A DNA stretch of 64,000 nt, taken from assembly GCF_003019035.1 (NCBI RefSeq), contig NZ_CP027447.1; one strand, 5' to 3'. A model generated the notes under the pieces. That model was not told the DNA's origin. It saw only the letters and a list, made by a program, of their open reading frames with translations, and made no database searches. The translations under genes and the position numbers were made by a program. This stretch comes from Escherichia coli (GTDB lineage Bacteria > Pseudomonadota > Gammaproteobacteria > Enterobacterales > Enterobacteriaceae). The stretch's first letter is position 1; each line of letters opens with the position of its first letter. This document shows positions 58,130 through 63,037 of the stretch, piece by piece.

Positions 58130-58789
58130 TTAGCCGAACTGTCCCCAATAAGCGCCTTTTTCCGGAAGAATATGTTCTTGCAGCGCCTGGAGCGCTTTTT
58201 CGGCATCCGCATCCTGGATAGCCTGAATAATCGCGACATGCTGTTGATGAGAACGATGCATATGTTCGTCATTACTGCCAAGATAATTGCGGATTGTCGC
58301 CATCTGCGCAGAAATAAGCACGTAGGATTGCTGTAAATAGGCATTGCCGCAATAGGTGAATAATGCCTCGTGGAACAGATTATCGAGGCGAATATATTCA
58401 TGTGTGGAATTATTTTCCAGACAAAACGTCATGTGATCGAGATAGGAGGATAATGCTTGTACCAGTTGGCGCTGATTGCGATGCAGGGACAGCCTCAGCG
58501 CTTTTGCCTCAACAAAATAACGAAACTCCAGCAGCCCGTTAAACTCAATATCGCTCAGGTTAAAAACAAAGGTTCCGCTTTTCGGGCGGATATGTACCAG
58601 CCCCTCGCTTTGTAGACGTCTCAAGGCGTCGCGTACCGGCGCTTTAGTGGAAGATAAACGAGTTGCCAGCGCTGATTCCGATATTTTACAGCCCATCGGT
58701 AATGTGCCGTTGATGATCATATCTCTGATACGACGATAAATAACGTCTTTGAGTAAGTCCGTTGTCATATTGATTGAAAATTCCGGCAT
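58130..58789 (-). CDS. GntR-family (FadR/FCD subfamily) transcriptional regulator
   Basis: 219 aa ORF with N-terminal winged helix-turn-helix (…ESALATRLSSTKAPVRDALRRLQSEGLV…) and helical C-terminal domain; last gene of the accessory cluster. Confidence 0.8.
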   Translation of the reverse strand: MPEFSINMTTDLLKDVIYRRIRDMIINGTLPMGCKISESALATRLSSTKAPVRDALRRLQSEGLVHIRPKSGTFVFNLSDIEFNGLLEFRYFVEAKALRLSLHRNQRQLVQALSSYLDHMTFCLENNSTHEYIRLDNLFHEALFTYCGNAYLQQSYVLISAQMATIRNYLGSNDEHMHRSHQQHVAIIQAIQDADAEKALQALQEHILPEKGAYWGQFG

Positions 58790-58932
58790 GTTAACTCGGT
58801 AAGCAGCCGTTTGCGGCCAGCAATAGAGGTGACTGTATAACAGATTTGCGGGAATGGGAAAATGATATATGGCAACAAGTTGACACTGGTGTACTGAGCG
58901 AAATTATGCCGCGCTGGCAGGCGCGGCACAGA

Positions 58933-59871
58933 TTACTGTAATTGAGTTTGCTGGATCAAGATTTCAACTTGTGACTGGCGAGGAATGGGGGCAACTGCGC
59001 CATAACCGGTTGTTGTCAGCGCAGCGGCGGCGTTGGCGTAGCACAGCGCCTCTTCCGGCGAATCACCTTTGATAATGCGGTAAAGAAAAGCACCCGAGAA
59101 GCAGTCCCCAGCCCCGGTCGCGTCGACGGTGGCGACTTTATGGCCAGAGTAGATGATTCGCCTGTTCTCATTGGCGAACATCGCGCCTTCCGCACCCATT
59201 TTTAACACCACATTCTTTGCCCCGAGCTGGAGATAGAAATCCGTAATTTCATCTGCATGATGCTTCCCGGTTAGCAAACGGGCCTCATCGAGGCTAGGCA
59301 TGCAGTAATCTACGTGGCGTATTGTTTCATGGATGATGGCGCGGGCGCGGGCTAACGGCCACAGTTTGAGCCGCAGATTGGTGTCGAAGGAAATCAGCGT
59401 TTGGTGCTTTTGGCACAGTTCAATAGCGTGAAAAAGCGCATCACTGACGTTATTGCCAATGGCGTGCGTGATGGCCGAACTGTGAAATAAGCGCGCGGCG
59501 GCAATCGCGGACTCATTGATATCATCGACCGTCATCGTAGAGGCCGCAGAGCCTTTACGATAAAAGGTAAAGTGGTGGCCTTGTTCATTGTGAGAAATAA
59601 AATAGATCCCCGTCGGGGCCATTTTATGCGTGCAAACCCATTGATGATCGACCTTTTCTTCATCCCATAATGCGCGGAATTTCTGCCCAAATATGTCGTC
59701 GCCAAGTCGGGTTAACATAGCAACTTTAGCGCCTTGTCGCGCCGCGCTAATGGCGAAATTCGATGTATCACCGCCAAATCCGCTGAGATAATGCTGCTCA
59801 GAATGCTCTGTGGGAAGCTGATTGAATTCAAAAAGCGGCTCACCAAATGAAAGAATATCGAACTGCTTCAT
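58933..59871 (-). CDS. PfkB-family sugar kinase, 2-dehydro-3-deoxygluconokinase (KdgK)-like
   Basis: ORF 58933..59904; GFGGDTSN, FDTNLRLKLW and DATGAGDCFSGAF motifs line up with KdgK-type kinases; start set at the ATG at 59871, which has GGAGA 7 nt upstream. Confidence 0.8.
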   Translation of the reverse strand: MKQFDILSFGEPLFEFNQLPTEHSEQHYLSGFGGDTSNFAISAARQGAKVAMLTRLGDDIFGQKFRALWDEEKVDHQWVCTHKMAPTGIYFISHNEQGHHFTFYRKGSAASTMTVDDINESAIAAARLFHSSAITHAIGNNVSDALFHAIELCQKHQTLISFDTNLRLKLWPLARARAIIHETIRHVDYCMPSLDEARLLTGKHHADEITDFYLQLGAKNVVLKMGAEGAMFANENRRIIYSGHKVATVDATGAGDCFSGAFLYRIIKGDSPEEALCYANAAAALTTTGYGAVAPIPRQSQVEILIQQTQLQ

Positions 59872-59936
59872 TACGTTCTCCATGTGATAGTCTAGGCTCG
59901 CCATCGGCCAGATTGGCTGATGGCGGCATAGGAAGG

Positions 59937-60593: not shown

Positions 60594-60624
60594 AACTCTT
60601 CCTCTCTTTATAGCGAATACTAAT

Positions 60625-61584
60625 TTATGGATTAACCCAATTAAGCGGATGCTCGCCTTCAAACGCCCGACGCACTTCATGCGCGGCTTTACTTTGCAAC
60701 TCGACCACCGACTCTTCGGTAAACCAGGCGGTGTGGTCCGTACATAAGGTGTTATCCATTTGCAGCAATGGACTTTTTGCACTGAGGGGTTCGGATTCAA
60801 AAACGTCGAGTCCGGCGGCGAAAATGCGCTTTTGTAGCAGGGCGTTGATCAGCGCCTGCTCATCGATAAGCCCGCCGCGTGAGGTATTGACCAGTACGGC
60901 GCTGGGCTTCATTTTGGCCAGTTCGGCTTCACCGATAAGATGATGGGTGTCCGGGGTTAGCGGGGCGTGAAGAGAAATGAAGTCCGCTTCACGGCACAGC
61001 GTATCGAGATTGACTCGCGTCACGCCTGCTTGTGAAGCCTGTTCATCGGTAAGTAGCGGATCAACTACCAGGATGCGCTTAAAGCCGAACCCTGATGCTT
61101 TTTGTACAAAGCAGCGGGAGATCCGGCCAAAACCGACGACGCCGAGAATTTTTCCCGCCAAGCGGAACATAGGTTCGCGCTGGCCAATTCCCCACTGACC
61201 ATCGCGAACATCACGGTTGCGGGTGGCGATACGGCGTGTTGCGGCCAGTAGTAACGCCAGAGCGTGCTCAGCAACATCTTCCGAGCCGTAGTCTGGTACG
61301 TTAGCGACGTAAATACCTTTTTCTTTGGCGGCCTGGCTATCGATATTGTCTACACCGACGCCATAGCGCACGATAACGCGGCATTGCTGCATCGCTTCAA
61401 TCATAGGGCGACTGACGGTTGCTTCGCGGACCATGATGGCGTCAGCATTGCTTACCTGGCGCAGTTTTTCTTCCAGTGAAGCGTTTGCTGGAACAACAAC
61501 AAACTGCGGATCCCAATCCTGTAAAATATTTTCTTCTGCAGAATAATTTAAATATCCAGGTTCAATAACTACTATTTTCTTCAT
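60625..61584 (-). CDS. NAD(P)-dependent D-isomer-specific 2-hydroxyacid dehydrogenase
   Basis: 319 aa ORF with Rossmann motif GVVGFGRIS and catalytic-domain layout of GhrA/PGDH-type enzymes. Confidence 0.85.
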   Translation of the reverse strand: MKKIVVIEPGYLNYSAEENILQDWDPQFVVVPANASLEEKLRQVSNADAIMVREATVSRPMIEAMQQCRVIVRYGVGVDNIDSQAAKEKGIYVANVPDYGSEDVAEHALALLLAATRRIATRNRDVRDGQWGIGQREPMFRLAGKILGVVGFGRISRCFVQKASGFGFKRILVVDPLLTDEQASQAGVTRVNLDTLCREADFISLHAPLTPDTHHLIGEAELAKMKPSAVLVNTSRGGLIDEQALINALLQKRIFAAGLDVFESEPLSAKSPLLQMDNTLCTDHTAWFTEESVVELQSKAAHEVRRAFEGEHPLNWVNP

Positions 61585-61699
61585 AATATCTACCGTTCTT
61601 AATTATAAAATTAAGTGTTTTAATTTCTACGGCTGTAGTTCGCCGCATCCTGAAAACAGAATGTGAAATTAATGAATGTTTTGTTTGTGGTTTATATCA

Positions 61700-63037
61700 T
61701 CACAGAGTAACGGGTTTGGCGTCCACGATAGCTATATTCTTTAACCAGCGGACAATTAATATTGTGACGATCCCGCCGATTAGCATAACCGCGCTTAAAT
61801 ATAACATCGGTGCCGAGTCGCTTTTTTCTAAATCACGTACCAGAGGGATGGTGTTTTGCGCGAAAAACCCCCCCAGATTTGCCAGTGAATTAATAATAGC
61901 AATGCCTGCAGCCGCCGTTGCGCCTGAAAGAAATTTCGTTAAATTCCAGAAGCAGGGTTGAATTGCAAATACTGATAATACAACGCCGCAAATACAGATG
62001 AAGCTAATAACCGGCTGGGCGAATGTCCAGACCGAGAGCAGCAGACATATTGCAGCGGTGAACATAGGTAATGCGACATTAATATAAGGATTCTCGGTAC
62101 GTTCTGGCTTACTGGTTATCCAGCGCAGCATGATGATAACCATCGCCCATGGGATCATATTGACCAGACCATTCATCATATCCGAGGCACCGAACGTTTT
62201 AACAATAGTTGGCATCCAGTAGCTGATACCGTAGGCACCAAAGCAGATGAACCCGTATACCAGCGCGAGGGCCAGAACACGCCAGTCGGTCAGCGATTTA
62301 CCCAGGCTATTGACCGATTTATCGGTGTTGGCATCCTGTTCGGCGGCCAGTTTTTTAATCAACCAGCTCTTCTCTTCCGCATTCAAGAAGCGAGCCTGTT
62401 CCGGTCCTTGCGGAAACCATAGCAGCACTGGGGCAATCAGCAGAAGTGCAAGCACCCCCGTCGCCAGGAATAACCACTGCCATCCTTCCAGCCCCATAAA
62501 GCCGTGCATGCTAAGCAGTGAGCCGTTAATTGGGGCACCAATCATATTTGCCACCATGCTGGCGGTGACTAAAAAGCCGACAATACGTGGACGATACTTT
62601 AAAGGGAACCATTTGGTAGAATAGTAAATTAGCCCAGGGTAAAAGCTGGCTTCGGCAACACCAAGAATAAAACGCAAAGTATAAAATGTTGACATTTTTT
62701 CGGTCCACGCCAGCGCCATAGTAATAACTCCCCATGACAACAGGCTAATAGTGAACCAGCGTTTAGCACCTACCTTCGATAAAATTAAATTTCCGGGAAC
62801 GCTAAAAACCAAATAACCGATGAAAAAAAGTGATGCGCCGAGGCCAAAAGCTGCTTCACTCCAGCCCAGGCTGTCTACCATTTGTAATTTAGCAAAACTG
62901 ATATTCTGACGATCTATATACGCCACGATGTACATCAATACCATCAGTGGAACAAGTTTCCTGGTTGTTTTTGTTACAATGATTTTTTCTAAATCATTTT
63001 TTGCATCCAGGGACTGTTGCTGTATTGAATGACTCAT
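61700..63037 (-). CDS. MFS transporter, anion:cation symporter (ACS) family, acid-sugar permease-like
   Basis: ORF 61700..63103 trimmed to the ATG at 63037 (MSHSIQQQS...); 12 predicted TMS; AYIDRQNISFA signature as in ExuT/GudP/DgoT-type permeases. Confidence 0.8.
   Translation of the reverse strand: MSHSIQQQSLDAKNDLEKIIVTKTTRKLVPLMVLMYIVAYIDRQNISFAKLQMVDSLGWSEAAFGLGASLFFIGYLVFSVPGNLILSKVGAKRWFTISLLSWGVITMALAWTEKMSTFYTLRFILGVAEASFYPGLIYYSTKWFPLKYRPRIVGFLVTASMVANMIGAPINGSLLSMHGFMGLEGWQWLFLATGVLALLLIAPVLLWFPQGPEQARFLNAEEKSWLIKKLAAEQDANTDKSVNSLGKSLTDWRVLALALVYGFICFGAYGISYWMPTIVKTFGASDMMNGLVNMIPWAMVIIMLRWITSKPERTENPYINVALPMFTAAICLLLSVWTFAQPVISFICICGVVLSVFAIQPCFWNLTKFLSGATAAAGIAIINSLANLGGFFAQNTIPLVRDLEKSDSAPMLYLSAVMLIGGIVTILIVRWLKNIAIVDAKPVTL

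What the first reader, a model, noticed from the sequence alone, without database searches (positions are those of the whole stretch)
58130..63037. Five-gene accessory locus between ilvC and ppiC: a candidate non-canonical keto-deoxy sugar-acid utilisation module
Between the ilvC terminator and ppiC, where I recall ilvC and ppiC being near-adjacent in K-12, sit five co-directional minus-strand genes: an ACS-family MFS permease, a D-2-hydroxyacid dehydrogenase, an RraA-family aldolase-like protein, a KdgK-like kinase and a GntR/FadR regulator. The internal gaps are short (about 31 bp and 65 bp), with longer gaps after the transporter (115 bp) and before the regulator (143 bp), consistent with one or two transcription units. 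The gene content suggests uptake of an anionic sugar, keto-reduction, phosphorylation and aldol cleavage, resembling the KDG to KDPG to pyruvate route but with an RraA-fold aldolase instead of Eda and no dehydratase. That would fit a substrate that is already a keto-deoxy or unsaturated uronate-derived acid. No integrase, IS or tRNA flanks it, so it may equally be an ancestral block lost from K-12. I cannot tell whether this cluster has already been characterised.
Basis: partly seen in the sequence, partly recalled or inferred. Interest (0 to 1): 0.72.

Follow-up and report, generated by a model that had tools for sequence, protein, structure and literature searches.

The report
Rare sugar-acid operon, RraA-like enzyme
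The five genes between ilvC and ppiC are a rare E. coli copy of a widespread, apparently uncharacterised bacterial operon for consuming an acidic sugar, in which the RraA-fold enzyme probably supplies a missing step upstream of the ordinary KDPG aldolase rather than replacing that aldolase.

Summary
Five intact minus-strand genes (ACS-type MFS permease, D-2-hydroxyacid dehydrogenase, long-form RraA/HMG-CHA-aldolase-like protein, KDG-kinase-like PfkB kinase, GntR/FCD regulator) fill the ilvC-ppiC spacer. That spacer is 45-86 bp in strains without the genes. Only 31 of 5,426 complete E. coli genomes carry the block. The same block sits at the same site in Klebsiella and in assemblies labelled Salmonella.

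The core dehydrogenase / RraA-like / PfkB kinase unit is conserved across Proteobacteria, Bacillota, Deinococcota and Actinobacteria, usually with a TRAP transporter. In 16 of 36 well-flanked loci it also encodes a genuine Eda-type KDPG aldolase, recruited in two different forms. It often carries a secreted beta-propeller (lactonase-like) protein as well. So the RraA-like protein is not an Eda substitute. E. coli most likely uses its chromosomal eda.

No dehydratase occurs in any version. My best inference is that the RraA-like Mg-enzyme makes the 2-keto-3-deoxy acid, in a route of keto-aldonate reductase, dehydratase-type step, KDG-type kinase and Eda.

A 12-bp palindrome (CTrACATGTyAG, three copies) and a CRP-like site upstream of the permease are conserved across genera.

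I found no paper on this module. The substrate is unknown.

The parts
61700..63037 (-). MFS permease of the anion:cation symporter (ACS) type, 445 aa; first gene of the operon
   Evidence: ORF. The best NCBIfam hit is the D-galactonate-transporter subfamily TIGR00893, 247.6 bits, below its 395 cut-off. PF07690 is recorded on orthologues. The start at 63037 is supported by a conserved RBS plus ATG.
60625..61584 (-). D-isomer-specific 2-hydroxyacid dehydrogenase, 319 aa (RefSeq name: 'C-terminal binding protein')
   Evidence: No NCBIfam equivalog cut-off is reached; the best hits are PGDH at 272 bits and glyoxylate reductase at 216 bits. PDB relatives are SerA, CtBP, glyoxylate reductases and 2-ketogluconate reductases. 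PF00389 and PF02826 are recorded on orthologues.
59937..60593 (-). Long-form RraA / HMG-CHA-aldolase-like protein, 218 aa; a probable Mg2+-dependent enzyme acting on a 2-oxo/2-hydroxy acid
   Evidence: PF03737, E = 5.5e-32. The AF2 model (pLDDT 79.5) matches 5IR2, 3K4I, Yer010c and HMG/CHA aldolase 3NOJ at TM 0.74-0.81. R117-D118 and H66 align with the catalytic Arg123, the metal ligand Asp124 and His75 of 3NOJ. Orthologues are 65-89% identical across phyla.
58933..59871 (-). PfkB-family sugar-acid kinase, 312 aa, KDG-kinase-like
   Evidence: The best NCBIfam hit is the KDG/KDGal kinase model at 204 bits (cut-off 400). The best PDB hits are the KDG kinases of Sulfolobus (1WYE, 2V78) and Thermus (1V19). 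The GAGD anion-hole motif is visible in the translation.
58130..58768 (-). GntR-family regulator with FCD effector domain, 212 aa; last gene, probably with its own promoter
   Evidence: PF00392 and PF07729 are recorded on orthologues. It is separated from the kinase gene by a 164-bp spacer that contains a GC-rich hairpin.
63161..63172 (.). Operator candidate 1: 12-bp palindrome CTGACATGTCAC (core TGACATGTCA), about 125 bp upstream of the permease ATG
   Evidence: The core GTGACATGTCAG is invariant in the E. coli, Salmonella-labelled, Klebsiella and Pantoea loci; Atlantibacter differs only at the first base (TTGACATGTCAG).
63302..63313 (.). Operator candidate 2: TTGACATGTCAG
   Evidence: a 21-nt inverted repeat with site 1. 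Conserved in position in Klebsiella and in the Salmonella-labelled locus.
63397..63408 (.). Operator candidate 3: CTAACATGTCAG (perfect match to the consensus CTrACATGTyAG)
   Evidence: The same 12-mer occurs in the divergent promoter regions of the Vibrio versions of the module.
63262..63277 (.). CRP-like site TGTGA-N6-TCACT between operators 1 and 2
   Evidence: 1 mismatch to the consensus, with 4 such sites in 64 kb against 1.8 expected. TGTGA-N6-TCAC is kept in the Klebsiella, Salmonella-labelled and Pantoea loci despite surrounding divergence. The function is inferred.
63186..63214 (-). Sigma-70-like promoter match (TTTACA-17-AAAAAT); it would place operator 1 just downstream of the transcription start
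   Evidence: This is a consensus match only (9 of 12 positions) and is weakly conserved in Klebsiella.
58065..58100 (.). GC-rich hairpin followed by a T-run after the ilvC stop; lies between the convergent ilvC and regulator genes
   Evidence: Sequence. It differs completely from the hairpin in the empty-site spacer of K-12-like and S88 strains.
63413..63435 (.). Hairpin TGGCCCT...AGGGCCA next to the ppiC stop; right-hand edge of the replaced spacer
   Evidence: conserved in the Salmonella-labelled locus. Absent from empty sites.
58908..58927 (-). GC-rich hairpin GCCGCGC-N6-GCGCGGC directly after the kinase stop codon
   Evidence: Sequence. There is no clear T-run, so its role as a terminator or attenuator is inferred.

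Best explanation
The locus is the enterobacterial (MFS-transporter) version of a widespread catabolic module: dehydrogenase, RraA-like enzyme and PfkB kinase, plus a transporter and a regulator. It converts an imported hexonic or keto-hexonic-type sugar acid into a phosphorylated 2-keto-3-deoxy acid. An Eda-type KDPG aldolase then cleaves that to pyruvate plus glyceraldehyde-3-phosphate.

Proposed order of steps:
1. Uptake by the ACS-type permease.
2. The 2-hydroxyacid dehydrogenase reduces a 2-keto-aldonate to the D-aldonate.
3. The RraA-like Mg2+ enzyme performs the dehydratase-type step, yielding a KDG-type 2-keto-3-deoxy acid.
4. The KDG-kinase-like PfkB enzyme phosphorylates that acid.
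5. The chromosomal eda of E. coli carries out the cleavage. Many other bacteria encode an Eda inside the module.

This layout mirrors the lower hexuronate (Ashwell) route, uxuB-uxuA-kdgK-eda.

Regulation: the GntR/FCD protein represses the operon through three CTrACATGTyAG operators, and a CRP-like site suggests catabolite control.

Shown by tool results: gene content, conserved synteny, linkage to Eda, conserved operators, and retention of the catalytic Arg/Asp in the RraA-like protein.

Inferred: the substrate class, the direction of the dehydrogenase reaction, the dehydratase role of the RraA-like protein, and the roles of the operators and of CRP.

My confidence that the module ends in Eda-type cleavage and that the RraA-like protein is not the Eda substitute is about 0.65. 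My confidence in the specific dehydratase assignment is about 0.3-0.35.
For: (1) Synteny. Among 36 well-flanked loci from about 100,000 species genomes, a PfkB gene lies next to the RraA-like gene in 33, 2-Hacid_dh in 31, a TRAP transporter in 28, GntR in 27, Eda in 16 and a secreted MRJP/SGL beta-propeller in 13. The RraA-like and PfkB genes often overlap.

(2) Eda. The Pseudovibrio Eda passes two curated NCBIfam cut-offs (260.5 vs 241; 244.3 vs 156). The Peribacillus Eda passes the TIGR01182 cut-off (166 vs 156). Eda genes sit either after PfkB (Vibrio, Pseudovibrio, Lonepinella) or between the dehydrogenase and the RraA-like gene (Peribacillus, Cohnella, Ruegeria and others). That pattern implies independent recruitment.

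(3) A minimal locus, L034, has GntR, TRAP, RraA-like, PfkB and Eda, with no dehydrogenase.

(4) No conserved dehydratase family is present in any locus. Clustering all ORFs gave only the families listed above plus an SDR and a Cupin_7.

(5) The kinase is closest to structurally characterised KDG kinases.

(6) The Firmicute version is regulated by a HexR/RpiR-type, SIS-domain (phosphosugar-sensing) regulator.

(7) The closest solved TRAP binding proteins that carry ligands hold aldonic-type acids: pantoate, D-erythronate and KDG.

(8) The RraA family already includes a sugar-acid dehydratase/decarboxylase, FlDet (PMC8563752). The protein here keeps Arg123, Asp124 and His75 equivalents and the C-terminal acidic helix.

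(9) In divergent variants the dehydrogenase is an SDR instead of a 2-Hacid_dh. Some loci carry both a 2-Hacid_dh and a KduD/gluconate-5-dehydrogenase-like SDR. This is what one expects of interchangeable keto-aldonate reductases.

(10) The operators and the CRP-like site are conserved across genera.
Against: - No RraA-fold enzyme is known to dehydrate a 2-hydroxy acid. All characterised members act on 2-oxo acids: HMG/CHA aldolase, oxaloacetate decarboxylase and FlDet. Abstracting the alpha-proton of an aldonate is harder chemistry.
- A remote homologue, P0281, fuses an isocitrate/isopropylmalate-dehydrogenase-family domain to an RraA-like domain. That favours 'dehydrogenase makes a 2-oxo acid, RraA-like acts on it'.
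- PfkB 2-ketogluconate kinases also phosphorylate KDG (PMC6651773), so KDG-kinase likeness does not fix the substrate.
- E. coli already has routes for gluconate, mannonate, altronate, galactonate and idonate, so the advantage conferred is unclear.
- No experimental data of any kind were found.
Confidence: 0.4

Rival explanations
1. Oxidation-first route. The 2-hydroxyacid dehydrogenase oxidises the imported D-2-hydroxy acid to a 2-oxo acid. The RraA-like enzyme then does what the family is known for on 2-oxo acids: beta-decarboxylation, retro-aldol cleavage or 4-OH elimination. That step creates the compound that is phosphorylated and cleaved by Eda.
For: - All characterised RraA-fold enzymes use 2-oxo acids, and the catalytic Arg/Asp are conserved.
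- The gene order dehydrogenase / RraA-like / kinase is constant.
- There is a fusion of an IDH/IPMDH-family oxidative decarboxylase with an RraA-like domain, P0281.
- A second 2-Hacid_dh / RraA-like pair lies in a different sugar-transporter cluster, L025.
Against: - Reaching an Eda substrate (a 2-keto-3-deoxy acid) by this route needs an unusual substrate, for example a 3-carboxy-2-hydroxy or 3-deoxy sugar acid. I know of no abundant natural source for either.
- Simple oxidation of a hexonate gives a 2-keto-hexonate, which is at the wrong oxidation level for KDG.
- The route does not explain why SDRs can replace, or join, the 2-Hacid_dh.
Confidence: 0.2
2. Kgu-like 2-ketoaldonate route, as in the Pseudomonas kguE-K-T-D operon. 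The MFS permease imports a 2-keto-aldonate. The PfkB kinase makes the 6-phosphate. The 2-Hacid_dh (KguD-like) reduces that to a 6-phospho-aldonate, which enters the Entner-Doudoroff pathway. The RraA-like protein either stands in for Edd on the phosphorylated acid or is an accessory enzyme, as the enigmatic KguE is.
For: - Three of the four enzyme or transporter families match the kgu operon (established knowledge of kguT/K/D; families confirmed).
- 2-ketogluconate kinases are PfkB proteins that also take KDG (PMC6651773).
- The 2-Hacid_dh scores best against enzymes acting on phosphorylated acids (SerA 272 bits, PdxB 117 bits).
- The RraA-like protein's second-best NCBIfam hit is the RraA-like domain fused to hexulose-6-phosphate synthase.
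- Inorganic phosphate binds next to the active site in HMG/CHA aldolase.
- HexR-type regulators accompany some versions.
Against: - Orthology to KguK and KguD was not tested, because no sequences were available.
- If 6-phosphogluconate were the product, neither the RraA-like protein nor a private Eda would be needed in hosts that have Edd and Eda.
- The kinase's nearest solved relatives are KDG kinases.
Confidence: 0.15
3. The RraA-like protein is the terminal class II aldolase and cleaves the phosphorylated (or free) keto-deoxy acid in place of Eda.
For: - The family contains Mg-dependent pyruvate aldolases, and the catalytic residues are retained.
- The E. coli, Klebsiella and many betaproteobacterial versions contain no Eda gene.
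Against: - Eda is encoded inside the module in 16 of 36 loci, in two unrelated arrangements, including minimal loci that hold both the RraA-like gene and Eda. Two terminal aldolases for one intermediate would be redundant.
- The closest enterobacterial relative with extra genes (Atlantibacter) carries Eda next to the same five genes.
- This model leaves the pathway without any step that generates a keto-deoxy acid.
Confidence: 0.12
4. The RraA-like protein is not a main-line enzyme. It could be an RNase E-type regulator, or an accessory such as a ring-opening 'anomerase' that hands open-chain KDG to the kinase. In that case the module is simply KDG uptake, kinase and Eda, plus a side dehydrogenase.
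For: - The RraA-like and PfkB genes are translationally coupled.
- A precedent for an accessory anomerase in sugar-acid catabolism appeared (YhcH, PMC8141875; title and abstract only).
- The title of the Thermus KDG kinase paper, cited, says that this enzyme recognises an open-chain substrate.
Against: - The protein is the long, enzyme-type form, with metal and catalytic residues. It matches short RraA only at TM about 0.53 and scores 50 bits against a 136-bit cut-off.
- It is the most conserved and most constant gene of the module, at 65-89% identity across phyla. That is unusual for a dispensable helper.
Confidence: 0.05

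Closest known systems
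Lower hexuronate (Ashwell) pathway of E. coli: ExuT, UxuB/UxaB, UxuA/UxaA, KdgK, Eda, with the GntR/FCD repressors ExuR and UxuR
   Same: It shares an ACS-type MFS acid-sugar permease, a GntR/FCD repressor with palindromic operators, a keto-aldonate reductase step, a PfkB KDG-type kinase and an Eda-type cleavage end point. It also shares the overall logic of reductase, dehydratase, kinase and aldolase.
   Different: There is no UxuA/UxaA-type (or any known) dehydratase; an RraA-fold protein occupies that slot. The reductase belongs to the D-2-hydroxyacid dehydrogenase family, not the mannitol-dehydrogenase family. None of the five proteins reaches an NCBIfam equivalog cut-off.
Pseudomonas 2-ketogluconate operon kguE-kguK-kguT-kguD
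   Same: It combines an MFS permease, a PfkB kinase and a D-2-hydroxyacid-family reductase in one operon, and it feeds the Entner-Doudoroff pathway.
   Different: The regulator is GntR/FCD rather than the LacI-type PtxS. An RraA-like protein replaces KguE. Orthology of the kinase and the reductase was not tested here.
HMG/CHA aldolase / oxaloacetate decarboxylase (LigK, GalC; PDB 3NOJ)
   Same: It has the same long-form alpha-beta-beta-alpha fold (TM 0.74). Equivalents of Arg123, Asp124 and His75 and the C-terminal acidic helix are retained.
   Different: Identity is about 26%, and scores are 82.7 and 81.6 bits against cut-offs of 304.5 and 179. Asp102 is replaced by Gly and Asn71 by Glu, and the distal substrate loop differs (GTTLGRFKT). 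The context is a sugar-acid cluster, not an aromatic meta-cleavage cluster.
FlDet, the RraA-family 2-keto-3-deoxy-hexarate dehydratase/decarboxylase of Flavobacterium sp. UMI-01 (PMC8563752)
   Same: It is an RraA-fold enzyme working on a sugar acid and catalysing a dehydration. It shows that the fold is not limited to aldol chemistry.
   Different: FlDet is about 27 kDa, is linked to alginate lyase and to a KGSA dehydrogenase route, and needs neither a kinase nor Eda. Its sequence relationship to the protein here was not measured.
E. coli RraA (RNase E inhibitor)
   Same: It belongs to the same Pfam family, PF03737.
   Different: RraA is a short form (161 aa) without the C-terminal helix. The fit is only TM about 0.53 and 50 bits against a 136-bit cut-off. 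There is no reason to expect RNase E regulation here.
Semi-phosphorylative Entner-Doudoroff pathway of archaea and clostridia (gluconate dehydratase, KDG kinase, KD(P)G aldolase)
   Same: It follows the order aldonate, KDG, KDPG, then pyruvate plus GAP. The kinase here is most similar to the archaeal and Thermus KDG kinases.
   Different: The known gluconate dehydratases belong to the enolase or IlvD/Edd families. This module also includes uptake, reductase and regulator genes, and it is a mobile accessory unit.

Membership tests
RraA / HMG-CHA aldolase superfamily (PF03737) | Significant match to the Pfam profile across the whole domain | tested here: met
   PF03737, E = 5.5e-32, residues 16-174 matching model positions 1-151 of 152.
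RraA / HMG-CHA aldolase superfamily (PF03737) | [quoted passage not shown] | tested here: met
   The AF2 model (pLDDT 79.5, pTM 0.80) has TM 0.74-0.81 to 5IR2, 3K4I, 2C5Q and 3NOJ, but only about 0.53 to the short RraAs.
HMG/CHA aldolase (LigK/GalC) as an orthologue | Score above the curated equivalog cut-off | tested here: not met
   TIGR02798: 82.7 bits against 304.5. NF006731: 81.6 bits against 179.
HMG/CHA aldolase-type catalytic machinery | Enolate-stabilising Arg123, metal ligands Asp124 and Glu199, and His75 | tested here: met
   R117, D118 and H66 align exactly and are invariant in 17 orthologues. Invariant D192, R194, E195 and E197 lie at the Glu199 position, give or take one residue. 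Asp102 is replaced by Gly96.
RraA (RNase E regulator) as an orthologue | Score above the equivalog cut-off; short 160-aa form | tested here: not met
   NF006875: 50.3 bits against 136. The protein is 218 aa long.
KDG kinase (KdgK) | PfkB fold with GAGD motif; score above the KDG-kinase equivalog cut-offs | tested here: inconclusive
   PfkB Pfam on orthologues and the GAGD motif in the translation are met. NF040938 scores 204 bits against 400, and NF052444 scores 129 bits against 400, so neither is met. The best PDB hits are KDG kinases. Specificity for KDG as opposed to 2-keto-aldonates cannot be told from homology.
D-isomer-specific 2-hydroxyacid dehydrogenases | Both Pfam domains; a member of a named equivalog | tested here: inconclusive
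   PF00389 and PF02826 are present on orthologues that are 94-95% identical in nucleotide sequence. No equivalog cut-off is reached; the best hit is PGDH at 272 bits against 454.
ACS-family MFS sugar-acid permeases | Match to the 2.A.1.14 subfamily model above its cut-off | tested here: not met
   TIGR00893 covers the full length (1-399 of 399) but scores 247.6 bits against a 395-bit cut-off. The protein is family-like, but its specificity is undefined.
GntR/FCD (FadR-like) local repressors | N-terminal GntR HTH plus FCD domain; palindromic operators in the regulated promoter | tested here: met
   PF00392 and PF07729 on orthologues. Three CTrACATGTyAG palindromes are conserved across genera and co-vary with the presence of the regulator. 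Binding itself was not tested.
Eda-dependent (KDPG-aldolase) pathways | A KDPG/KHG aldolase gene functionally linked to the module | tested here: met
   Eda lies within 7 kb in 16 of 36 loci, and cut-offs are passed. The E. coli cluster itself has none. Reliance on the chromosomal eda is inferred from established knowledge that eda is a core E. coli gene.
Mobile genomic island | Integrase, IS, tRNA target, direct repeats or atypical composition | tested here: not met
   None of these were found in the window. GC content is about 0.39-0.56, close to the host. The Atlantibacter copy, by contrast, lies next to an integrase and a transposase fragment.
Pseudomonas kgu operon | Orthologues of kguK, kguD, kguT and kguE | not tested
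   Only family-level correspondence was established. No Kgu sequences were available for comparison. No KguE-type (TIM-barrel) gene is present.

The most novel reading that the evidence does not exclude
The RraA-like protein would be the founding member of a new, non-homologous class of sugar-acid dehydratase (or another new 2-keto-3-deoxy-acid-forming enzyme). It would define a self-contained route, 'keto-aldonate reductase / RraA-fold dehydratase / KDG-type kinase / Eda', that is spread by horizontal transfer through at least six bacterial phyla. Optional parts would be a periplasmic lactonase-like propeller and an oxygen-dependent SDR + Cupin_7 side branch.
Probability: 0.3. Interest if true: 0.7.

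Novelty: new variant of a known kind. Interest (0 to 1): 0.5.

Why it matters
If the inference is right, a very common and highly conserved 'RraA family protein' annotation hides a new enzyme activity in central sugar-acid catabolism. HMMER found 2,889 cluster representatives of the wider family at E <= 1e-10. The module's orthologues are 65-89% identical across phyla. A whole pathway, present in gut, plant-associated, soil and marine bacteria, would then be missing from metabolic reconstructions.

For E. coli the locus is a strain-variable nutritional trait, present in 0.6% of complete genomes. It lies at a chromosomal site shared with Klebsiella and with Salmonella-labelled genomes, so it could bear on niche competition in the gut.

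The conserved operator gives a direct experimental handle for finding the inducer, for example a reporter fusion or an EMSA.

Tried and rejected
(1) Literature. Nine full-text searches combined RraA, dimethylmenaquinone methyltransferase or HMG aldolase with PfkB, 2-hydroxyacid dehydrogenase, TRAP, KDG, sugar acid or genome neighbourhood. None returned a paper on this module. The only relevant finds were FlDet and the HMG/CHA aldolase work. The Vetting et al. TRAP-SBP paper could not be retrieved under the PMC id I recalled.

(2) Inferring the ligand from TRAP binding proteins of the Pseudovibrio and Sulfitobacter versions. The best PDB hit, 4P47, is ligand-free. The next hits bind pantoate, erythronate or KDG at only about 30-35% identity. 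This is suggestive but not decisive.

(3) Looking for a known dehydratase, integrase, tRNA, riboswitch or flanking repeats. None was found.

(4) Treating the cluster as a classic mobile island. I rejected this, because the whole ilvC-ppiC spacer is replaced cleanly and the same site is occupied in other genera.

(5) Substrate guesses considered and set aside as unsupported: dehydroascorbate/2,3-diketogulonate, Kdo/Dha, unsaturated uronates (DKI/DEH), tartrate/glucarate (gar-like), pantoate and C4 tetronates. None accounts simultaneously for the KDG-type kinase, the Eda linkage and the optional dehydrogenase.

(6) Naive ORF calling in high-GC loci produced many antisense artefacts. I filtered these by third-position GC.

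(7) A G-x20-R-D-x2-E/D motif that I recalled for active RraA-like enzymes could not be verified in the accessible text, so I do not use it.

Full report
OBSERVATION

The window is 100% identical to the chromosome of E. coli SCU-301. Five intact, co-directional minus-strand genes lie between the ilvC stop (58045) and the ppiC stop (63442):
- MFS permease, 61700-63037
- D-2-hydroxyacid dehydrogenase, 60625-61584
- RraA-like protein, 59937-60593
- PfkB kinase, 58933-59871
- GntR/FCD regulator, 58130-58768

The gap before the regulator is 164 bp if the start supported by RefSeq and by the orthologues is used. RefSeq names the products generically: 'MFS transporter', 'C-terminal binding protein', 'RraA family protein', 'sugar kinase' and 'GntR family transcriptional regulator'.

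An AGGAAA ribosome-binding site plus ATG is conserved in four other genera.

No tRNA, Rfam family, integrase, IS or flanking direct repeat is present.

DISTRIBUTION AND ORIGIN

Only 31 of 5,426 complete E. coli genomes carry the block. In every case it is chromosomal and at least 99.5% identical. The hosts include humans, mice, chickens, a horse, marsupials, seawater and a prawn.

Strains without the block have ilvC and ppiC 86 bp apart (K-12-sized strain J3) or 45 bp apart (S88), sharing one hairpin. In carriers the whole spacer is replaced, each junction has a different hairpin, and there is no target duplication.

The same five genes lie at the same ilvC-ppiC position in Klebsiella (K. quasivariicola and others) and in assemblies labelled Salmonella enterica. 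Nucleotide identity to E. coli compares as follows:

| Compared with E. coli | Four transport/enzyme genes | Regulator gene | Flanks (ilvC, ppiC, rep) |
|---|---|---|---|
| Klebsiella | 92-95% | 78% | 87-88% |
| Salmonella-labelled | 95-96% | 98% | about 94% |

The block has therefore been at this site for a long time in Enterobacteriaceae, or it moves by homologous recombination through the conserved flanks. It is somewhat less diverged than the flanks, which hints at exchange after speciation.

More distant enterobacterial copies are 68-76% identical in nucleotide sequence (Atlantibacter, Pantoea At-9b). They keep the order permease / dehydrogenase / RraA-like / kinase (/ regulator) but add a divergent secreted MRJP/SGL beta-propeller gene. 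In Atlantibacter there is also an Eda gene, an integrase and a transposase fragment. The E. coli block thus looks like a trimmed version.

WHAT THE PROTEINS ARE

No protein reaches a curated NCBIfam equivalog cut-off, so none is an orthologue of a named enzyme.

The permease is ACS-like (TIGR00893, full length, 247.6 bits against a 395-bit cut-off).

The dehydrogenase is a generic D-2-hydroxyacid dehydrogenase. Its solved relatives are SerA, CtBP, glyoxylate reductases and 2-ketogluconate reductases.

The kinase is a PfkB protein with the GAGD motif. Its best solved relatives are the KDG kinases of Sulfolobus and Thermus. PfkB 2-ketogluconate kinases also phosphorylate KDG (PMC6651773), so homology cannot separate these specificities.

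The 218-aa protein is a long-form member of PF03737. An AlphaFold model (pLDDT 79.5) superposes on 5IR2, 3K4I, yeast Yer010c and HMG/CHA aldolase 3NOJ at TM 0.74-0.81, but on the short RNase E regulators only at about 0.53. In a profile alignment, R117-D118 and H66 coincide with the essential enolate-stabilising Arg123, the metal ligand Asp124 and His75 of the aldolase. An invariant acidic cluster (D192, E195, E197) lies where the second metal ligand, Glu199, sits. Asp102 and Asn71 are replaced, and the distal substrate loop (GTTLGRFKT) is different. It is therefore very probably a metal-dependent enzyme that stabilises a 2-oxo-acid enolate. It is not a LigK orthologue and not an RNase E regulator.

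THE DECISIVE CONTEXT EVIDENCE

Orthologues of the RraA-like protein are unusually conserved. They are 65-89% identical in Pantoea, Rouxiella, Lonepinella, Vibrio, Photobacterium, Pseudovibrio, Sulfitobacter, Rhizobium and Succinatimonas. More distant copies, at 46-68% identity, are found in Burkholderiales, Peribacillus, Cohnella, Clostridiales, Trueperaceae, Agrococcus, Streptomyces and an Armatimonadetes MAG.

Around them the same module recurs. In the 36 loci of the species-genome scan with enough flanking DNA, the counts within 7 kb of the RraA-like gene were:

| Component | Loci (of 36) |
|---|---|
| PfkB | 33 |
| 2-Hacid_dh | 31 |
| TRAP transporter | 28 |
| GntR/FCD regulator | 27 |
| Eda-family aldolase | 16 |
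| MRJP/SGL propeller (the Pseudovibrio copy has a signal peptide) | 13 |
| MFS permease | 2 |

The Pseudovibrio Eda passes the curated cut-offs of both PRK05718 and TIGR01182. The Peribacillus Eda passes that of TIGR01182.

Eda occurs in two arrangements with different Eda subtypes. One sits after the kinase (Vibrio, Pseudovibrio, Lonepinella). The other sits between the dehydrogenase and the RraA-like gene (Peribacillus, Cohnella, Clostridiales, Ruegeria, Rhodospirillaceae).

One Oxalobacteraceae locus consists only of GntR, TRAP, RraA-like, PfkB and Eda. In 44-48%-identical variants an SDR replaces the 2-Hacid_dh, with the order SDR / RraA-like / PfkB followed by an NMT1-type ABC transporter and a Cupin_7. 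The RraA-like and PfkB genes frequently overlap.

The Firmicute version uses a HexR/RpiR-type regulator, which has a phosphosugar-binding domain, instead of GntR.

Clustering all ORFs of 57 loci revealed no conserved dehydratase or other enzyme family. The only additions were a KduD/gluconate-5-dehydrogenase-like SDR and a Cupin_7 protein, which follow the kinase in about 13-16 loci.

INTERPRETATION

The repeated, independent recruitment of a true KDPG/KHG aldolase to the module means that the pathway ends in an Eda substrate. In E. coli, Klebsiella and many betaproteobacteria the housekeeping eda presumably serves; this is an inference, resting on the fact that eda is a core gene.

What the module lacks everywhere is a step that creates a 2-keto-3-deoxy acid. 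The only constant, unassigned enzyme is the RraA-like protein, which sits between a dehydrogenase and a KDG-type kinase. This is the architecture of uxuB-uxuA-kdgK-eda and of the semi-phosphorylative Entner-Doudoroff route. My best explanation is therefore the following:
1. Uptake of a keto-aldonic or aldonic acid. Where the propeller is present, periplasmic lactone opening or a similar step comes first.
2. Reduction of the 2-keto acid by the 2-Hacid_dh. In some bacteria the SDR reduces a 5-keto group.
3. A dehydratase-type conversion by the RraA-like enzyme.
4. Phosphorylation by the kinase.
5. Cleavage by Eda.

The enol product of such a dehydration is the same kind of species as the pyruvate enolate that this fold stabilises. 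One family member, FlDet, is already a sugar-acid dehydratase/decarboxylase (PMC8563752).

The weak point is that no RraA-fold enzyme is known to act on a 2-hydroxy acid. In addition, a remote fusion of an isocitrate-dehydrogenase-family domain with an RraA-like domain (P0281) favours the alternative, in which the dehydrogenase makes a 2-oxo acid and the RraA-like enzyme then decarboxylates or cleaves it. A Kgu-like order (kinase, then reductase) is also possible. I could not discriminate between these by computation.

REGULATION

The 404-bp region upstream of the permease contains three copies of a 12-bp palindrome, at 63161-63172, 63302-63313 and 63397-63408. All three are conserved in position in the Klebsiella and Salmonella-labelled loci, although the surrounding sequence diverges. 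The promoter-proximal core GTGACATGTCAG is invariant in E. coli, Salmonella-labelled, Klebsiella and Pantoea, and Atlantibacter differs only at the first base (TTGACATGTCAG).

The consensus CTrACATGTyAG, or a relaxed form CTAAnATnTTAG, reappears in the divergent promoter regions of the Vibrio, Lonepinella, Pseudovibrio and Succinatimonas versions, which encode the cognate regulator. This is the signature of a local GntR/FCD repressor.

A CRP-like site, TGTGATGCTTGTCACT (63262-63277), is likewise conserved. A weak sigma-70 match at 63214-63186 would place operator 1 just downstream of the transcription start. That is a consensus match only.

A GC-rich hairpin follows the kinase stop codon, and the regulator gene has a 164-bp upstream spacer. 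Two transcription units are therefore plausible.

KNOWN OR NEW

Nine full-text searches found no description of this module. The library does not hold most subscription-journal papers, so a published characterisation cannot be excluded.

By kind, this is an ordinary regulated sugar-acid catabolic operon. Its non-canonical feature is the RraA-fold enzyme in the central position, together with the optional propeller and cupin partners. I rate it a new variant of a known kind and of moderate interest. It is a well-defined, testable lead for a new enzyme activity and an unmapped pathway, not a surprising biological principle.

Noticed in passing
L016:12872-14129; L017, L018, L021-L023, L026, L030, L032, L045, L047, L048, L053; L068:6506-6961: In many alpha- and betaproteobacterial versions the kinase gene is followed by a KduD/gluconate-5-dehydrogenase-like SDR and a 160-175-aa Cupin_7 protein. 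The cupin is strongly similar to 2,4'-dihydroxyacetophenone dioxygenase (PDB 4P9G, E = 1e-42), an enzyme that cleaves a -CO-CH2OH group with O2. Oxidising KDG at C5 and then cleaving it in this way would give 4-hydroxy-2-oxoglutarate plus formate, and 4-hydroxy-2-oxoglutarate is the other substrate of Eda. This would be a possible oxygen-dependent, non-phosphorylative branch. It is pure speculation.
   Followed up: partly
L003:10670-11866, L060:3751-4989, L061:3666-4904, L062:2704-3891: A roughly 400-aa MRJP/SGL six-bladed-propeller protein accompanies about a third of the modules. The Pseudovibrio copy begins with a signal-peptide-like sequence; the other copies were not checked. In Lonepinella it is in the same operon as the TRAP genes. 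Its nearest structure is an uncharacterised Anabaena protein (2QE8); the dopachrome-conversion enzyme and the Drp35 lactonase are distant. It could be a periplasmic lactonase or mutarotase, in the manner of NanM. The E. coli block lacks it.
   Followed up: partly
P0281 (614 aa), P0166 (890 aa), P0144/P0161/P0167 (about 440-450 aa): Fusion proteins among remote homologues. P0281 has an isocitrate/isopropylmalate/tartrate-dehydrogenase-family domain followed by an RraA-like domain. P0144, P0161 and P0167 are tandem double RraA-like proteins. P0166 has a 670-aa N-terminal region with weak right-handed beta-helix (lyase-like) signals followed by an RraA-like domain.
   Followed up: partly
L025:1387-3060: Pararobbsia silviterrae has a second, paralogous 2-Hacid_dh / RraA-like gene pair (38% and 34% identity). 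It is embedded in a ribose/arabinose-type (CUT2) sugar ABC transporter cluster together with a glyoxalase-family gene. The dehydrogenase / RraA-like couple is therefore reused in other carbohydrate contexts.
   Followed up: partly
window 63038-63085 and 63103 (RefSeq CDS starts): RefSeq starts the MFS gene at GTG 63085 in SCU-301. In strain A21 the annotated MFS CDS is 18 nt longer, corresponding to the TTG at 63103. Cross-genus conservation of the RBS plus ATG supports 63037, so the annotated N-terminal extensions are probably wrong.
   Followed up: yes
L002:3113-3562 (K-12-sized strain J3), compared with window 63724-63810: K-12-like strains carry a PemK/MazF-family toxin gene between ppiC and rep. 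It is absent from the window strain and from S88, where ppiC and rep are adjacent. The ilvC-ppiC-rep stretch is a small hotspot of gene-content variation.
   Followed up: no
L065-L067: 4547-5193: The Klebsiella and Salmonella-labelled loci have two tandem ppiC-like rotamase genes next to the cluster. The outer copy is only 69% identical in nucleotide sequence to E. coli ppiC in Klebsiella. E. coli has one. The Salmonella-labelled locus also has a HigBA-like pair between ilvY and ilvA.
   Followed up: no
L067 flanks: The flanking ilvC, ppiC and rep of the assemblies labelled Salmonella enterica are about 94% identical to E. coli. This seems high for that species pair, so the species label or the history of this region may deserve a check.
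   Followed up: no
PDB 5IR2: The closest solved structure to the RraA-like protein is deposited as a 'novel cellulase' from a gut metagenome, yet it has the RraA fold (31% identity, TM 0.78). The deposited name may be a functional misassignment.
   Followed up: no
window 6297-6308: A further exact TGACATGTCA palindrome lies far from the cluster. At this stringency about two matches per window are expected by chance, so it is probably unrelated.
   Followed up: no
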